From an uncultured Candidatus Saccharibacteria bacterium (GTDB lineage: Bacteria > Patescibacteriota > Andersenbacteria > UBA10190): DNA of 45,390 bases. Positions 19,404 through 22,680 of this stretch are shown one piece after another. Each line of letters begins with the position of its first letter. The first letter of the stretch is position 1. A model generated the notes under the pieces. That model saw only the letters and a list, made by a program, of their open reading frames with translations. It did no database searches and was not told the origin of the DNA. The translations under genes were made by a program, and so were the position numbers. Location of the stretch: the NCBI GenBank assembly GCA_964373855.1, contig CAYJWL010000004.1, positions 1-45,390 of the forward strand, read 5' to 3'.

Positions 19404-19865
19404 ATGAGCAGTAACGGAAATGGAAGGTCTGGTGGCAAAAAGTGCGGGGGTAAGATCGTGCGGGATTTTACCATGGGAGAACTTGAAGCCCAAGCAAAAA
19501 GACGGGGCTTCCAGCTGGTTCTGAAAGATCCCGCAACACCTGCCTACTGCGGTTTTCTTGAGTGCGGCCATGATTTCCGTCGTAAGCAGCGCGTCCAGCT
19601 TGTGAAGGATCTCGGGTCAGGGCGAATTTGTTTATGGTGCGCTTATCGACACCAATGGCCGGCAATTCGGGCGATATATGTGCGTTGGGATGACTTGCTT
19701 TTCACAATTGCCAAGGTTGCCGGCTTTAAGCTGGTTCCGCTGGGTCAGATATCAGATGAGCTCCCCATACGGCAGGACAGTGAGCCCAACGGAAGAAAAA
19801 AACGCAGAATACGCCTGCGCCGCCGGTCAAGCCACCGCCCAGCGTACAGCCAGTTTCGGCACTAG
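19404..19865 (+). CDS. Orphan basic protein with Cys/His cluster (possible zinc ribbon); alternative leaderless start at 19311
   Basis: GGAAGGAG lies 8 nt upstream of ATG 19404. The product has CGFLECGH...CLWC and an Arg/Lys-rich tail GRKKRRIRLRRRSS. It is followed by a strong intrinsic terminator. I recognise no family. Confidence 0.5.
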   Translation: MSSNGNGRSGGKKCGGKIVRDFTMGELEAQAKRRGFQLVLKDPATPAYCGFLECGHDFRRKQRVQLVKDLGSGRICLWCAYRHQWPAIRAIYVRWDDLLFTIAKVAGFKLVPLGQISDELPIRQDSEPNGRKKRRIRLRRRSSHRPAYSQFRH

Positions 19866-19900
19866 CTGATTATATTCACAACGCGACTTCAGCAGTACAA

Positions 19901-19937
19901 GGCAGAGAAGCTTTAGAAGCATCTCTGCCTCTTTTTT
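19901..19937 (+). terminator. Rho-independent terminator
   Basis: The stem GGCAGAGA-(13 nt)-TCTCTGCC is followed by TCTTTTTTAT. Confidence 0.75.
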
Positions 19938-20031
19938 ATATATATATTCCCGTTCCGCTCTCTACTTCAGGGTCAAGCTGAACGGTCTAAGTATGGTCAC
20001 AGATCACTTCTATTAATACACTATGCACTTT

Positions 20032-20189
20032 AAAACACGCCCAGCACAATCCTGTGAGCGGCTTCTAAGGCTGTTTTGGCATAGTACCCGCCGAAGCGTT
20101 AGCGAAGGCGGGGCAAAACAGCCGCAGCCTCGGAAGCCCCGCGCTGGCGGAGCGAGAATGAGCGAACAAGATTGTGCTGGGCGTGCTTT
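20032..20189. repeat. 158-nt rod-like inverted-repeat element (function unknown; MITE-like or hairpin RNA)
   Basis: The outer arms are CACGCCCAGCACAATC (20036-20051) and GATTGTGCTGGGCGTG (20170-20185), a perfect 16 bp that extends to 19/20. An inner 10-bp helix pairs GGCTGTTTTG (20069-20078) with CAAAACAGCC (20114-20123). The apex hairpin is CCCGCC..GGCGGG. Confidence 0.6.
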
Positions 20190-20219
20190 CACGAAAGTAA
20201 AGAGGTACAAAGCCGAAGC

Positions 20220-20247
20220 TTGACATAATCTCATTTATGGTTATAAT
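20220..20247 (+). promoter_or_regulatory. Consensus sigma70 promoter TTGACA-N16-TATAAT with no adjacent CDS
   Basis: The -35 TTGACA is at 20220-20225 and the -10 TATAAT at 20242-20247. The nearest credible CDS (aspS) starts 610 nt downstream. Confidence 0.65.
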
Positions 20248-20288
20248 GACCAGTTCTTTAGATGTGCGTTTTTCGACAGTTTTCCAAC

Positions 20289-20457
20289 TTATCTGTGGTA
20301 AGGAGGGCCTTCTTTACGTGAAGAAGGGATGCTTTCCGCAACAGAGCTAAGGCAGTTTCCCCGCTTTACGGCGAGGCAGACTTTCTTCGTCTTGAGCAAA
20401 AAAGTGCTTCGTGTGGGCCTAAAGCCCATGCGAATGATCACTCTTTACCACAGATAA
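20289..20457 (+). ncRNA. Candidate structured RNA, ~170 nt, closed by a 17-bp helix, about 35 nt downstream of the predicted TSS
   Basis: UUAUCUGUGGUAAGGAG (20289-20305) pairs with CUCUUUACCACAGAUAA (20441-20457), giving 16 Watson-Crick pairs and one G-U. Internal hairpins are CCUUCUU-uacgug-AAGAAGG and UUCGUGUGGGC-cuaaa-GCCCAUGCGAA. I recognise no Rfam-class motif by eye. Confidence 0.4.
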
Positions 20458-20646
20458 AGGGGAAAGCAGCGATTGGTCATCTGCAGGTGTCATACTTGCA
20501 TTTTCCTGCCTGCCCGGTACAGTATTATGTTCTCTTTAAAACCTCTGCTGGTGCCTCGTACACGCTTGCATTCCTTAGCGATTTCATGAAGAGATTGTTG
20601 GGGAATGTGCGCCTTTGTGGTGCACAGTGTCCTTTACCTCAATTGA

Positions 20647-20756
20647 GGGGCGTATGAAGGAGCGCCCCGCATCCTAGGCATACGACCTTCTCGCCCCGCC
20701 CTATAAGCGGGGTGAGAACCTAGGAGAGTGCAGTTCGTTGCCGGACTTTACTCTCC
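20647..20756 (+). other. Three consecutive stable hairpins in the aspS upstream region
   Basis: The first is GGGGCG-(10)-CGCCCC (20647-20668). The second is CCUAGG..UUCUCGCCCCGC-ccuauaa-GCGGGGUGAGAA-CCUAGG (20673-20724). The third is GGAGAGU-(20)-ACUCUCC (20723-20756). Confidence 0.5.
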
Positions 20757-20856
20757 TGGGTATGAACGCGGCCGCGTCGGCGCACGGCAGCAGCCCCCTC
20801 AAGTATGGGTCAGCTGTATTTTTTTGGCTTTTGCCTTTACTCTGTACGCTATATCT

Positions 20857-22680
20857 ATGTCCAAAAGCCAGCATATTTCTGACACCGTTTACCGCACGCA
20901 TACCTGCGGAGAGTTGCGTCCCGATCACGCCGGATTGAGTGTTCGCTTGGCCGGATGGGTACATGCTCGGCGCGATCATGGCGGGCTGATTTTTATTGAC
21001 CTGCGCGACCGGTGGGGGATTACACAACTTACGTTTGATCCAAACAAGAACAACCAGCCCTGGCAATTAGCAGCTACTTTGCGTTCAGAGTTTGTTATTC
21101 AGGTCGAAGGGAAAGTAATGGCCCGGCCCAATGATATGGTGAACCCCGCTCTGCCTACCGGAGGAGTAGAAGTAGCAGTGAGTCACATGACCCTTTTAAG
21201 CGCCTCTGACCCTCTGCCCTTTGAGGTGGCAAAGGATGACCATGTGAACGAAGACATCCGTCTCAAATATCGCTTTCTTGACCTGCGCCGTCCTCGTCTG
21301 CGCGCCATACTGGAGCAGCGCGACCGGTTTATTAGTCACATCCGCCGCTACATGCAGCAGCATAGTTTTATTGAGGTACAAACGCCGATATTGGCGAACT
21401 CATCTCCTGAAGGAGCCCGGGATTATCTGGTGCCCAGCCGCCTCCACCCGGGAAAGTTTTACGCGTTACCGCAAGCGCCGCAGCAGTTCAAACAGTTACT
21501 GATGGTTGCCGGATTGGATCGGTATTTTCAGATCGCTCCGTGTTTCCGCGATGAAGATCCCCGAGCCGATCGCCATCCCGGCGAATTCTACCAATTGGAT
21601 TTAGAAATGAGTTTTGTGGCGCCGGAAGATGTTTTTGCTGTGGTCGAGCCGCTGATGATTGAGCTGACGGAAAGATTCAGCACCAAGGAGATTACAACCA
21701 AGCCGTTCCCGCGCATTCCCTGGAAAGAGGCCATGACGAAATACGGCACTGATAAGCCCGATTTGCGCTATGAACTTTTCATCAGCGACGTATCGAACAT
21801 TGTATCGGAGTCAAAATTTGAGGTTTTTGTCCAAGCTTTGGCAAACGGGGGAGTAGTCCATGCGCTGCACGTGCCGGGTGGCGCTGGCTTTACCCGAAAG
21901 GATATTGATGATCTCACGAACAAGGCTAAGATGTTGGGCGTAGGCGGTTTGGCCTATCTAAGCATCAAGGAAAAAGCCTCTTCTCCTATTCTAAAATACC
22001 TGGGCGAGCAGCTTGCTCAGCACGTTGTCCAGGCGGTGGGAGCCAGTCGAGGTGATATACTATTTTTTGCGGCGGGCAAATGGCCAGAAGTATCCCGGGC
22101 GCTGGGCGCCACCCGTGATCTGGCCGCGGCCAAACTGGGACTCAAGGATCCAGATAAAGCTGCCTGGGCCTGGGTAGTTGATTTTCCTATGTACGAATTC
22201 AACGAGGCAGCAGGAAAAATTGATTTTTCCCATAATCCTTTTTCTATGCCTCAAGGGGGGAAGGAAGCGCTGACTACTAAGGATCCGACAGCCATCGTGG
22301 GGTATCAATATGATCTGGCTCTCAATGGCTTTGAGATCAGTTCGGGCGCGATCCGCAACCACGATCCCGAGCTCATGTACCAGGCCTTCGCCATTGCCGG
22401 CTATGCCCGCCGCGAGGTTGATGCAAAATTCGGCGGCTTGATTTCGGCATTTCGTTACGGCGCGCCGCCTCATGGCGGCTTGGCTCCGGGCATTGACCGG
22501 TTGATGATGGTGCTCTTTGACGTGGATAGCATCCGTGATATTTACGCGTTTCCCAAAAATGGACGCGCTCAAGATGTTTTGATGGGAGCGCCGTCAAAAG
22601 TCGACGATATATTGCTGCGCGATCTTCATCTCAAGCTAGATATACCGGGCAACAAGACTGGACAGGGAGAGGCGGCATGA
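20857..22680 (+). CDS. aspS: Aspartate--tRNA ligase (bacterial type with GAD insertion)
   Basis: The product has RTHTCGELR, WVHARRDHGGLIFIDLRD, FRDEDPRADR (motif 2) and GGLAPGIDRLMM (motif 3). I moved the start from 20728 to ATG 20857 (MSKSQHISD). Confidence 0.95.
   Translation: MSKSQHISDTVYRTHTCGELRPDHAGLSVRLAGWVHARRDHGGLIFIDLRDRWGITQLTFDPNKNNQPWQLAATLRSEFVIQVEGKVMARPNDMVNPALPTGGVEVAVSHMTLLSASDPLPFEVAKDDHVNEDIRLKYRFLDLRRPRLRAILEQRDRFISHIRRYMQQHSFIEVQTPILANSSPEGARDYLVPSRLHPGKFYALPQAPQQFKQLLMVAGLDRYFQIAPCFRDEDPRADRHPGEFYQLDLEMSFVAPEDVFAVVEPLMIELTERFSTKEITTKPFPRIPWKEAMTKYGTDKPDLRYELFISDVSNIVSESKFEVFVQALANGGVVHALHVPGGAGFTRKDIDDLTNKAKMLGVGGLAYLSIKEKASSPILKYLGEQLAQHVVQAVGASRGDILFFAAGKWPEVSRALGATRDLAAAKLGLKDPDKAAWAWVVDFPMYEFNEAAGKIDFSHNPFSMPQGGKEALTTKDPTAIVGYQYDLALNGFEISSGAIRNHDPELMYQAFAIAGYARREVDAKFGGLISAFRYGAPPHGGLAPGIDRLMMVLFDVDSIRDIYAFPKNGRAQDVLMGAPSKVDDILLRDLHLKLDIPGNKTGQGEAA

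What the first reader, a model, noticed from the sequence alone, without database searches (positions are those of the whole stretch)
20220..20500. Consensus promoter driving a non-coding, 17-bp-closed structured domain
TTGACA-N16-TATAAT is the best promoter match in the window, yet no gene start follows it. The predicted TSS (~20254) is followed by a 19-codon ORF of doubtful value (20262-20321). Next comes the domain 20289-20457, whose ends pair over 17 bp. The 5' arm contains UAAGGAGG, a perfect SD-like sequence, which is sequestered by pairing with CUCUUUACC. A weak hairpin with a U-rich tract (GCAGGU-gucau-ACUUGC-AUUUUCC, about 20482-20505) could end a ~250-nt sRNA. Otherwise the transcript continues about 600 nt into aspS.
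Basis: partly seen in the sequence, partly recalled or inferred. Interest (0 to 1): 0.62.

Follow-up and report, generated by a model that had tools for sequence, protein, structure and literature searches.

The report
New folded small RNA beside aspS
The consensus promoter drives a real, previously uncatalogued folded RNA of about 200 nt that sits immediately upstream of the aspartyl-tRNA synthetase gene in 30 of 35 genomes of one family of ultra-small (CPR, Candidatus Andersenbacteria) bacteria, most likely as a separate small RNA gene, with its function still unknown.

Summary
TTGACA-N16-TATAAT (20220-20247) is a 12/12 promoter match. The domain 20289-20457 is closed by the stated 17-bp helix (MFE z = -5.45).

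The fold is selected. A covariance model finds one copy in 30 of 35 genomes of the same taxonomic family and none in 381 other Patescibacteria. Across 28 sequences, 35 of 49 pairs show compensatory changes.

The RNA ("A") is a three-way junction closed by a helix of more than 21 bp. It matches no Rfam 15 family.

An AspRS gene lies 170-850 nt downstream on the same strand in 29 of 29 loci, whereas the upstream neighbour is not conserved.

Between A and aspS lies a second, equally conserved element ("B", about 20596-20765). B is a switch-like leader with alternative alpha/beta/gamma pairings, and in most relatives it appears to have its own promoter.

In at least 18 of 29 relatives A is followed by a U-tract or a separate strong terminator before that second promoter. 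I therefore read A as a separate, strongly expressed small RNA gene locked to the aspS regulatory unit (about 0.55). The main rival is an upstream cis module of the aspS leader (about 0.28).

The SD-like UAAGGAGG is one strand of a covarying helix and is followed by no conserved mini-ORF.

Function is inferred only.

The parts
20220..20247 (+). Promoter P_A: TTGACA, 16-nt spacer, TATAAT. The predicted TSS is about 20252-20254, at the A/G/T of AGTTC.
   Evidence: 12/12 match. The same near-consensus promoter (TTGACA, N16-18, TATAAT or TATACT) precedes the RNA in at least 21 of 30 relatives by a strict regex. RGTTC follows the -10 by 4 nt in all 7 sequences first aligned.
20252..20282 (+). Variable 5' leader of RNA A. 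In the MFE fold it pairs with 20459-20481 and lengthens the closing rod. It contains the non-conserved 19-codon ORF.
   Evidence: MFE structure. Length varies from about 8 to 45 nt among relatives.
20283..20305 (+). P1, 5' strand (closing helix plus covarying extension). Contains GUGGUAAGGAGG.
   Evidence: Covariance-model hit 20283-20463. Helix 1: 21 pairs, 15 with changes on both sides, 93.7% of cells paired.
20308..20327 (+). P2, an optional hairpin. It is present in the window, G005, G003 and G002, and absent in G001, G033 and G032 (genus g2).
   Evidence: Inverted repeat I14. Gap pattern in alignments A1 and A2.
20331..20407 (+). P3, a long irregular arm: GCUUUCCGCAACAGAGCUAAGGCAGUUUC ... 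CUUCGUCUUGAGCAAAAAAGUGC. In this genome it carries an apical extra hairpin (about 20359-20377). Conserved internal-loop motifs are GCAAYAYAG and CUUGAGC.
   Evidence: RNAalifold consensus. Helices 2-5: 14 of 19 pairs with changes on both sides. Conserved columns.
20409..20434 (+). P4 hairpin, UCGUGUGGGCC-UAAA-GCCCAUGCGA. In most relatives the loop is CCUACUGC.
   Evidence: Helix 6: 9 pairs, 6 with changes on both sides. Alignment.
20441..20463 (+). P1, 3' strand (CUCUUUACCACAGAUAAAGGGGA).
20482..20505 (+). Weak hairpin plus UUUU, the likely 3' end of RNA A in this genome. It overlaps the -35 of the proposed second promoter.
   Evidence: Terminator-like site. Relatives have a U-run directly after P1 (15 of 29) or separate hairpins of -10.6, -19.4 and -24.9 kcal/mol followed by U5-U7 before P_B (3 more).
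20496..20535 (+). Proposed promoter P_B for aspS: TTGCAT (20496-20501), 16-nt spacer, TACAGT (20518-20523), then GTTCTCT (20529-20535).
   Evidence: By analogy only. This site scores 8/12 and was missed by the scan. Relatives have TTGCAx/TTGCCT, N16-17, TATAGT/TATACT, then N4-5 and (A)GTTCTCT at the matching place.
20596..20765 (+). Domain B, the conserved aspS leader.
- B1 hairpin: 20606-20626.
- B3 hairpin: 20647-20668, with invariant loop UGAAGGAG.
- alpha: CCUAGG, 20673-20678.
- Junction: CAUACGAC, 20679-20686.
- Variable hairpin: 20687-20718.
- beta: CCUAGG+AGAGU, 20719-20729.
- B5 hairpin.
- gamma: ACUCUCCUGGG, 20750-20760.
   Evidence: Model R3 hit 20596-20730. alpha:beta is 6/6 paired in 27 of 28 loci, using four different sequence pairs. 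beta+5:gamma is 9-11/11 paired in 24 of 28, and the 5-nt extension changes on both strands.
20857..22680 (+). aspS, a bacterial-type aspartate-tRNA ligase of 607 aa. This is the gene to which A and B are linked.
   Evidence: NCBIfam NF001750 at 789 bits and TIGR00459 at 645 bits. Lies downstream of A in 29 of 29 loci.

Best explanation
RNA A is an uncatalogued, lineage-specific structured RNA gene.

How it is made:
- A consensus sigma-70-type promoter (20220-20247) starts transcription at about 20253.
- The transcript folds into a three-way junction (long arm P3, hairpin P4, optional P2).
- The 5' and 3' parts pair over more than 21 bp (P1, 20283-20305 with 20441-20463).
- It most likely ends shortly after P1, at the 20482-20505 hairpin and U-tract in this genome. 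This gives a stable, abundant sRNA of about 210-250 nt.

How it relates to aspS:
- aspS itself appears to be transcribed from a second, weaker promoter just downstream. Its mRNA carries a separate switch-like leader, domain B.
- A is permanently linked to this unit. I therefore infer that it acts in aspartyl-tRNA synthetase control as a free RNA. Its conserved junction and loops would bind a partner that also matters for the aspS switch, such as tRNA-Asp, AspRS or the leader itself.

Shown: the sequence features, conservation, covariation, phyletic distribution, synteny, and the terminators and second promoter motifs in relatives.

Inferred: the transcript ends, the abundance, and any function.
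For: - Structure under selection: 28 homologues, 91.6% of cells paired against 75.4% in shuffles. 35 of 49 pairs have double changes. Covariation score is 0.544 against 0.247 in shuffles (0 of 500 reach it) and 0.10-0.14 with slid partners.
- Single copy per genome, in 30 of 35 family genomes and 16 of 18 genera. 0 of 381 other Patescibacteria sampled have it.
- The four family genomes that lack both A and B are explained by assembly gaps. In G007 aspS starts 185 nt from a contig end. G019, G028 and G034 lack aspS itself.
- The near-consensus promoter is conserved upstream.
- aspS is downstream in 29 of 29 loci, while at most 4 of 30 share an upstream gene.
- Insulation from aspS: a U-run directly follows P1 in 15 of 29 relatives. 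Three more have separate hairpins of -10.6, -19.4 and -24.9 kcal/mol followed by U5-U7 before the second promoter. Promoter-like hexamers with RGTTCTCT lie between A and B.
- In some relatives 250-600 nt are inserted between A and the second promoter, yet A is equally conserved there.
- Not a repeat: A is single copy in its own genome.
- Not coding: indels are not in multiples of three, and no conserved start codon follows the SD-like motif.
Against: - There are no expression data.
- In this genome P1 is not followed by a U-run. The only terminator candidate is weak (8 pairs, 3 G-C). P_B here scores only 8/12, so read-through into B and aspS may be substantial.
- Strict same-strand adjacency to one gene is more typical of cis-regulatory elements than of trans-acting sRNAs.
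- In the sister family an A-like helix-closed element lies upstream of aspS without an obvious terminator after it.
- One incomplete genome (G016) has B and aspS but no detectable A.
- A crude cognate versus non-cognate duplex test gave no sign that A and B co-evolve as pairing partners.
Confidence: 0.55

Rival explanations
1. A is the upstream module of one long aspS leader, acting in cis. Transcripts from the strong P_A either stop at P1 plus its U-tract or read through B into aspS. The three-way junction would be an aptamer for an effector such as tRNA-Asp, AspRS or aspartate, which sets how often P1 forms. The weak P_B gives only basal expression.
For: - aspS is adjacent on the same strand in 29 of 29 loci, while upstream neighbours vary.
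- A and B have identical phyletic distribution.
- P1 followed by a U-run looks like a terminator whose loop is a folded domain in 15 of 29 relatives.
- In the window there is no strong terminator between A and B.
- The A-like element of sister-family genomes is followed directly by the aspS leader.
Against: - Strong hairpin-plus-U-run terminators lie between A and the second promoter in L061, L066 and L067. By eye the same holds in L064, L070 and L072.
- Promoter-like hexamers stay next to B, not next to A, when 250-600 nt are inserted between them.
- G016 keeps B and aspS without A.
- No T-box or other known leader model matches.
Confidence: 0.28
2. A is the lineage's version of a housekeeping protein-binding RNA, such as a 6S-like regulator of RNA polymerase. 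Its position next to aspS would then be historical.
For: - About 200 nt, consensus promoter, 5' and 3' ends paired, single copy.
- Rfam 6S is found in none of the 35 family genomes, so the 6S role is unfilled.
- From memory only: the B. subtilis 6S-1 gene bsrA lies in the aspS-yrvM intergenic region.
Against: - No 6S hit even at E <= 10 on this region.
- The consensus is a three-way junction. In G001, G033 and G032 (genus g2) the 5' strand between P1 and P3 is 0-3 nt, so there is no two-sided central bubble to mimic an open promoter or to template pRNA.
- A is restricted to one taxonomic family, whereas a housekeeping RNA should be wider.
- RNase P RNA is elsewhere in the genome, on contig C28.
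Confidence: 0.1
3. A is a ribosome-engaging RNA. Its masked strong Shine-Dalgarno sequence (UAAGGAGG) would be exposed under some condition to load ribosomes on a mini-ORF, or to titrate 30S subunits. Earlier notes of this scan proposed this for other Andersenbacteria RNAs.
For: - GGAGG or GGAG is present in the 5' strand of P1 in about two thirds of members.
- Domain B also displays an invariant GAAGGAG in a hairpin loop.
- Earlier AI notes report masked SD plus mini-ORF RNAs in this class. These are leads only.
Against: - No conserved start codon or ORF follows the motif. Only 10 of 30 members have any start codon 3-13 nt downstream, at differing positions and with different ORF lengths.
- The motif drifts (AAAGAG, AAUGAG, CAACUCAU) with compensating changes on the other strand, as expected of a plain helix.
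Confidence: 0.05
4. The pairing is a DNA-level inverted repeat (MITE-like element or protein-binding palindrome) or a chance fold, not an RNA.
For: A multi-copy rod-like inverted repeat does lie immediately upstream, at 20030-20200.
Against: - A is single copy in its genome.
- It keeps its position and strand relative to aspS.
- It shows G-U-tolerant, strand-specific covariation. The reverse strand scores 29 bits against 169.
Confidence: 0.02

Closest known systems
T-box riboswitch (Rfam RF00230)
   Same: Both are structured RNA upstream of an aminoacyl-tRNA synthetase gene. The neighbouring domain B has mutually exclusive helices, one of which is followed by a U-run in four relatives, which resembles terminator/antiterminator logic. 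B also carries an invariant GAC (an Asp codon) in a junction. A carries UGGY in P1, which could in principle pair with the GCCA end of tRNA-Asp (discriminator G).
   Different: There is no match to the T-box model even at E <= 10. There are no Stem I motifs, and no AGGGUGGNACCGCG box with a UGGN bulge. In A the UGGY is simply part of a long covarying helix. A appears to be a separate transcript upstream of the aspS promoter.
6S RNA (Rfam RF00013)
   Same: Similar size, consensus promoter, paired 5' and 3' ends, single copy. No other 6S candidate exists in the family.
   Different: A is a three-way junction rather than a rod with a two-sided central bubble. No covariance-model match. Distribution is restricted to one family.
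Riboswitch-terminated transcripts that also act as sRNAs (for example Listeria SreA/SreB; from general knowledge), and orphan structured sRNAs from comparative genomics (Weinberg et al. 2017, PMC5737381)
   Same: A folded domain ending in a terminator, made from its own promoter and sitting next to the regulated gene. Like those orphan RNAs, it is recognised only through covariation.
   Different: No ligand or target is known. A is followed by another promoter rather than directly by the coding region.
E. coli thrS operator (autoregulation by tRNA mimicry; general knowledge)
   Same: An RNA element linked to a synthetase gene, which could bind the synthetase.
   Different: A has no conserved GUC anticodon-like loop. 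A precedes both bacterial-type and archaeal-type AspRS genes.

Membership tests
T-box riboswitch (RF00230) | Match to the family covariance model | tested here: not met
   cmscan of 19850-20900 at E <= 10 lists no T-box hit. There is none at gathering score in the window, nor upstream of aspS in 16 other CPR loci.
T-box riboswitch (RF00230) | Conserved T-box sequence with a UGGN bulge in an antiterminator that competes with a terminator | tested here: not met
   A has GUGG(U/C) only as the base-paired 5' strand of P1, with no bulge. No AGGGUGGNACCGCG-like box is seen in A or B.
T-box riboswitch (RF00230) | Specifier codon matching the regulated synthetase, displayed in a Stem I loop | tested here: inconclusive
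   A has no conserved GAC or GAU in a loop. Domain B has an invariant CAUACGAC junction in 28 of 28 loci, and the tRNA-Asp anticodon is GUC.
6S RNA (RF00013) | Match to the family covariance model | tested here: not met
   No hit on the region at E <= 10. No hit above cut-off in any of the 35 family genomes.
6S RNA (RF00013) | Rod with a large two-sided central bubble flanked by helices | tested here: not met
   The consensus is a three-way junction. In G001, G033 and G032 (genus g2) the 5' strand between P1 and P3 is 0-3 nt.
6S RNA (RF00013) | Binds the RNAP holoenzyme and templates pRNA | not testable with these tools
   Needs biochemistry.
MITE / repeated palindromic element | Multiple copies per genome with terminal inverted repeats | tested here: not met
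   The only full-length match in the 0.89-Mb genome is the element itself. The neighbouring element 20030-20200 is multi-copy.
Stand-alone sRNA gene (own promoter and terminator) | Conserved promoter upstream | tested here: met
   12/12 match in the window. TTGACA, N16-18, TATAAT or TATACT in at least 21 of 30 relatives.
Stand-alone sRNA gene (own promoter and terminator) | Intrinsic terminator before the next transcription unit | tested here: inconclusive
   Met in at least 18 of 29 relatives: P1 plus U-run, or a separate strong hairpin plus U-run. In the window there is only a weak hairpin with UUUU at 20482-20505.
Stand-alone sRNA gene (own promoter and terminator) | A discrete transcript is observed | not testable with these tools

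The most novel reading that the evidence does not exclude
A and B together form a two-RNA control system for aspartyl-tRNA synthetase that replaces the T-box in this CPR lineage. B would be a new riboswitch-like class that senses uncharged tRNA-Asp (through its invariant GAC junction) or free aspartate. A would be an abundant free RNA that binds the same effector, or the leader itself, and so sets the threshold of the switch as a natural decoy or anti-switch.
Probability: 0.15. Interest if true: 0.8.

Novelty: new member of a known kind. Interest (0 to 1): 0.55.

Why it matters
CPR/Patescibacteria are almost all uncultivated, and little is known of their regulatory RNA. This locus gives a covariation-supported RNA family absent from Rfam 15. 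Its genetic link to an essential translation gene is unusually clear.

It sits beside a second conserved element that behaves like a new type of switch controlling an aminoacyl-tRNA synthetase without a T-box.

If A works together with that switch, it would be a rare natural case of a free structured RNA tuning a cis-acting RNA switch. It would also show how organisms that depend on their hosts for amino acids monitor aspartate or tRNA-Asp charging.

Even if A's function proves unrelated, it is a well-defined candidate for structure probing and pull-down experiments.

Tried and rejected
1. Known RNA families. Rfam at gathering score on the window, and at E <= 10 on 19850-20900, gave only a weak minus-strand RAGATH-23 hit (26 bits against a 92.6 cut-off) and noise.
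2. MITE or repeat. A is single copy.
3. RNase P, tmRNA and SRP.
   - RNase P RNA is on contig C28.
   - ARAGORN finds no tmRNA in the genome.
   - I saw no tRNA-like end or SRP helix-8 motif in A.
4. 6S RNA. Rfam finds no 6S anywhere in the family, and A's fold does not fit 6S.
5. Conserved mini-ORF behind the masked SD. None found.
6. Leader-peptide attenuation. The 19-codon ORF has no Asp codon and lies in a stretch of variable length.
7. A pairing with B in trans.
   - RNAduplex energies for cognate versus non-cognate A/B pairs were -90.1 against -89.1 kcal/mol, with cognate ranks spread evenly. The test is crude and shows no signal.
   - Loop complementarities I noticed by eye (CCUACUGC with GCAGUG; the P4 5' strand with CAUACGA) are not kept in the window or in genus g2.
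8. Shared CAYRCGAY motif between P4 of A and the junction of B. It occurs in only 9 of 30 A sequences.
9. RGTTC after the -10 as a general promoter feature of the genome. It occurs at only 3-4 of 29 near-consensus promoters. Its meaning at P_A and P_B remains open.
10. Apparent loss of A and B in some family genomes. This is an artefact of contig ends and missing aspS.
11. Literature searches for an aspS motif or CPR ncRNAs found nothing relevant.
12. RNA-seq evidence.

Full report
**Observation.**
- The window lies on contig C4 of a 0.89-Mb, 61-contig genome. Its nearest named relatives are Candidatus Andersenbacteria, in the Patescibacteria/CPR.
- TTGACA, a 16-nt spacer and TATAAT at 20220-20247 match 12/12. 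This is one of about eight perfect matches among 29 near-consensus promoters in the genome.
- The arms 20289-20305 and 20441-20457 pair as described. The pairing extends to 20281-20305 / 20441-20465.
- The predicted transcript 20254-20510 folds to -99.4 kcal/mol, z = -5.45 against dinucleotide shuffles.
- No ORF of note follows the promoter. aspS (NCBIfam NF001750, 789 bits) starts at 20857.
- Rfam 15 has nothing for this region, even at E <= 10.

**Is it an RNA under selection?**
- A blastn-type search of 60 relatives gave one clear and several weak matches.
- Read in the right orientation, these shared three things: a TTGACA...TATAAT/TATACT promoter, AGTTC four bases after the -10, and the closing sequences GUGGUAAGGAGG ... 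CUCUUUGCCAC.
- A covariance model built from seven sequences found exactly one strong hit in 30 of 35 genomes of the taxonomic family, covering 16 of 18 genera.
- On the resulting 28-sequence alignment, 91.6% of cells form standard pairs, against 75.4% in shuffles.
- 35 of 49 pairs have changes on both sides.
- The covariation score is 0.544. Shuffles give 0.247 (0 of 500 reach the observed value), and slid partners give 0.10-0.14.
- The closing helix alone has 15 of 21 pairs with double changes. The alignment was fitted to the model, which inflates these numbers somewhat, but the margin is large.
- The consensus fold is a three-way junction:
  - P1, more than 21 bp.
  - An optional P2.
  - A long irregular P3 with conserved GCAAYAYAG and CUUGAGC.
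  - A P4 hairpin whose loop is usually CCUACUGC.
- A is single copy in its own genome. The rod-like element just upstream (20030-20200) is, by contrast, a multi-copy repeat.

**Distribution.**
- A refined model found A in all 20 family genomes included in a 401-genome sample of the phylum. It found none in the other 381, including the sister family.
- The family genomes that seemed to lack A do so for assembly reasons. In G007 aspS begins 185 nt from a contig end. G019, G028 and G034 lack aspS altogether.

**Context.**
- In 29 of 29 loci with enough flank, an AspRS gene lies 170-850 nt downstream on the same strand.
- No upstream gene is shared by more than 4 of 30 loci.
- The synthetase is the bacterial type in most genomes. 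In four it is the archaeal-type non-discriminating AspRS (TIGR00458, 419 bits).

**Domain B, a second conserved element between A and aspS.** In the window it spans about 20596-20765. Its parts are:
- A covarying hairpin followed by GCAGUGWUCUUU.
- A hairpin with the invariant loop UGAAGGAG.
- A helix alpha/beta (CCYRGG/CCYRGG) that encloses an invariant CAUACGAC junction and a variable hairpin.
- A further hairpin whose base pairs beta with a third segment, gamma.

Evidence that B behaves like a switch:
- alpha:beta is fully paired in 27 of 28 loci, using four different sequence pairs.
- beta+5:gamma has 9-11 of 11 pairs in 24 of 28 loci, and the 5-nt extension changes on both strands.
- In four relatives gamma is followed by a U-run.
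- In a subset of genus g2 the aspS AUG follows gamma directly.
- So B is a switch-like leader in which beta chooses between alpha and gamma.
- A model of B has exactly the same phyletic distribution as A.
- An earlier AI note (e1-1005099) describes what appears to be the same switch in another genome. I could not link the two by sequence.

**Is A part of the aspS transcript or a gene of its own?**

Evidence for a separate gene:
- Between A and B most relatives carry promoter-like hexamers: TTGCAx or TTGCCT, N16-17, then TATAGT or TATACT. RGTTCTCT follows 4-5 nt after the -10.
- These hexamers stay next to B even where 250-600 nt are inserted after A.
- In the window the matching site is TTGCAT (20496-20501), a 16-nt spacer, TACAGT (20518-20523), then GTTCTCT. 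It scores only 8/12 and rests on analogy.
- Directly after P1, 15 of 29 relatives have a U-run.
- Three more have separate hairpins of -10.6, -19.4 and -24.9 kcal/mol followed by U5-U7, just before the second promoter. By eye so do L064, L070 and L072.
- In genus g2 the -35 of the second promoter lies inside the 3' strand of P1.
- A is as well conserved in species where such terminators should cut it off from aspS. Its function therefore cannot depend on co-transcription. This is the main reason I favour a discrete sRNA.

Evidence against:
- This genome has only the weak hairpin and UUUU at 20482-20505.
- The strict adjacency to aspS looks cis-like.
- Two sister-family genomes carry an A-like element upstream of aspS: a roughly 20-bp closing helix, GUGGUAACCCRGGCAAG ... 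CUUGCYYGGGUGCCAC. No evident terminator follows it.
- The covariance model does not recognise this element, so homology is unproven.

**What A is not.**
- Not a T-box. There is no model match, no T-box sequence and no specifier in A.
- Not 6S-like in fold. Rfam 6S is absent from all 35 family genomes, so the 6S role is unfilled.
- Not RNase P RNA, which lies on contig C28.
- Not a masked-SD mini-ORF RNA. The purine strand drifts with compensating changes, and no conserved start codon follows it.
- No evidence that A and B co-evolve as pairing partners.
- The CAYRCGAY resemblance between P4 and the junction of B holds in only 9 of 30 sequences.

**Mechanism and odds.**
- Best reading (0.55). 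P_A makes an abundant RNA of about 210-250 nt, closed by a long helix. It is released before P_B, and its conserved junction and loops bind a partner relevant to AspRS control.
- The partner is unknown. Candidates are tRNA-Asp (anticodon GUC, discriminator G), AspRS, or the B leader.
- Cis-leader rival: 0.28.
- 6S-like or other housekeeping RNA: 0.10.
- Ribosome-engaging masked-SD RNA: 0.05.
- DNA repeat or chance: 0.02.

**Novelty.** I did not find the family in Rfam 15 or in the papers searched. In kind it is a conserved structured bacterial sRNA or leader next to a synthetase gene. I therefore rate it a new member of a known kind. The upside is that A plus B may be a new, non-T-box way of controlling an aminoacyl-tRNA synthetase.

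**Limits.**
- No transcript data.
- E-values from the home-made models are rough.
- Several terminators and promoters in relatives were judged by simple scripts or by eye.

Noticed in passing
window 20030-20200: The rod-like inverted repeat just upstream of P_A is a multi-copy element of this genome, with copies on C15, C8, C27 (two) and C29. Three copies lie 20-120 nt upstream of near-consensus promoters: the window's P_A, C8:16142 and C27:6111. It may act as an insulator or terminator-type repeat.
   Followed up: partly
window 20596-20765: Domain B is a conserved switch-like aspS leader. It has an invariant UGAAGGAG hairpin loop and a CAUACGAC junction (GAC is an Asp codon). The helices alpha/beta and beta/gamma are mutually exclusive. 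It has the same phyletic distribution as A and matches no Rfam family.
   Followed up: partly
window 20819-20850: A U7 run (20819-20825) and a GUACGCU motif (20844-20850) lie between domain B and the aspS AUG. (A)GUACGMU-like motifs recur 10-15 nt before the start codon in many relatives, and several relatives have a canonical terminator here.
   Followed up: no
L048, L049, L053, L059 (relatives): The same A-plus-B leader precedes an archaeal-type non-discriminating AspRS (TIGR00458) instead of the bacterial-type enzyme. This implies that the synthetase was replaced in place behind a conserved regulatory region.
   Followed up: partly
L178 1097-1204 and L179 1178-1296 (reverse-complemented loci, sister family): An A-like element closed by about 20 bp (GUGGUAACCC.GGCAAG ... 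CUUGC..GGGUGCCAC) lies upstream of aspS. It is followed by TATACT+GTTC and a long hairpin with a U-run. Model R2 does not detect it.
   Followed up: partly
G000:C8:16142 onward: A near-consensus promoter (TTGACA, 17-nt spacer, TATCAT, then TGTTCGTAAATG) is followed by about 680 nt without an ORF of 90 aa or more. This is another possible non-coding RNA locus.
   Followed up: no
P_A (window 20248-20262) and P_B (window 20524-20545), and relatives: Both promoters are followed, 4-5 nt after the -10, by RGTTC(Y)(Y)T..AAA. This is rare at other strong promoters of the genome (3-4 of 29). It could be a shared operator or a shared 5'-terminal RNA motif.
   Followed up: partly
G000 whole genome: ARAGORN finds no tmRNA gene in this 93%-complete assembly.
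   Followed up: no
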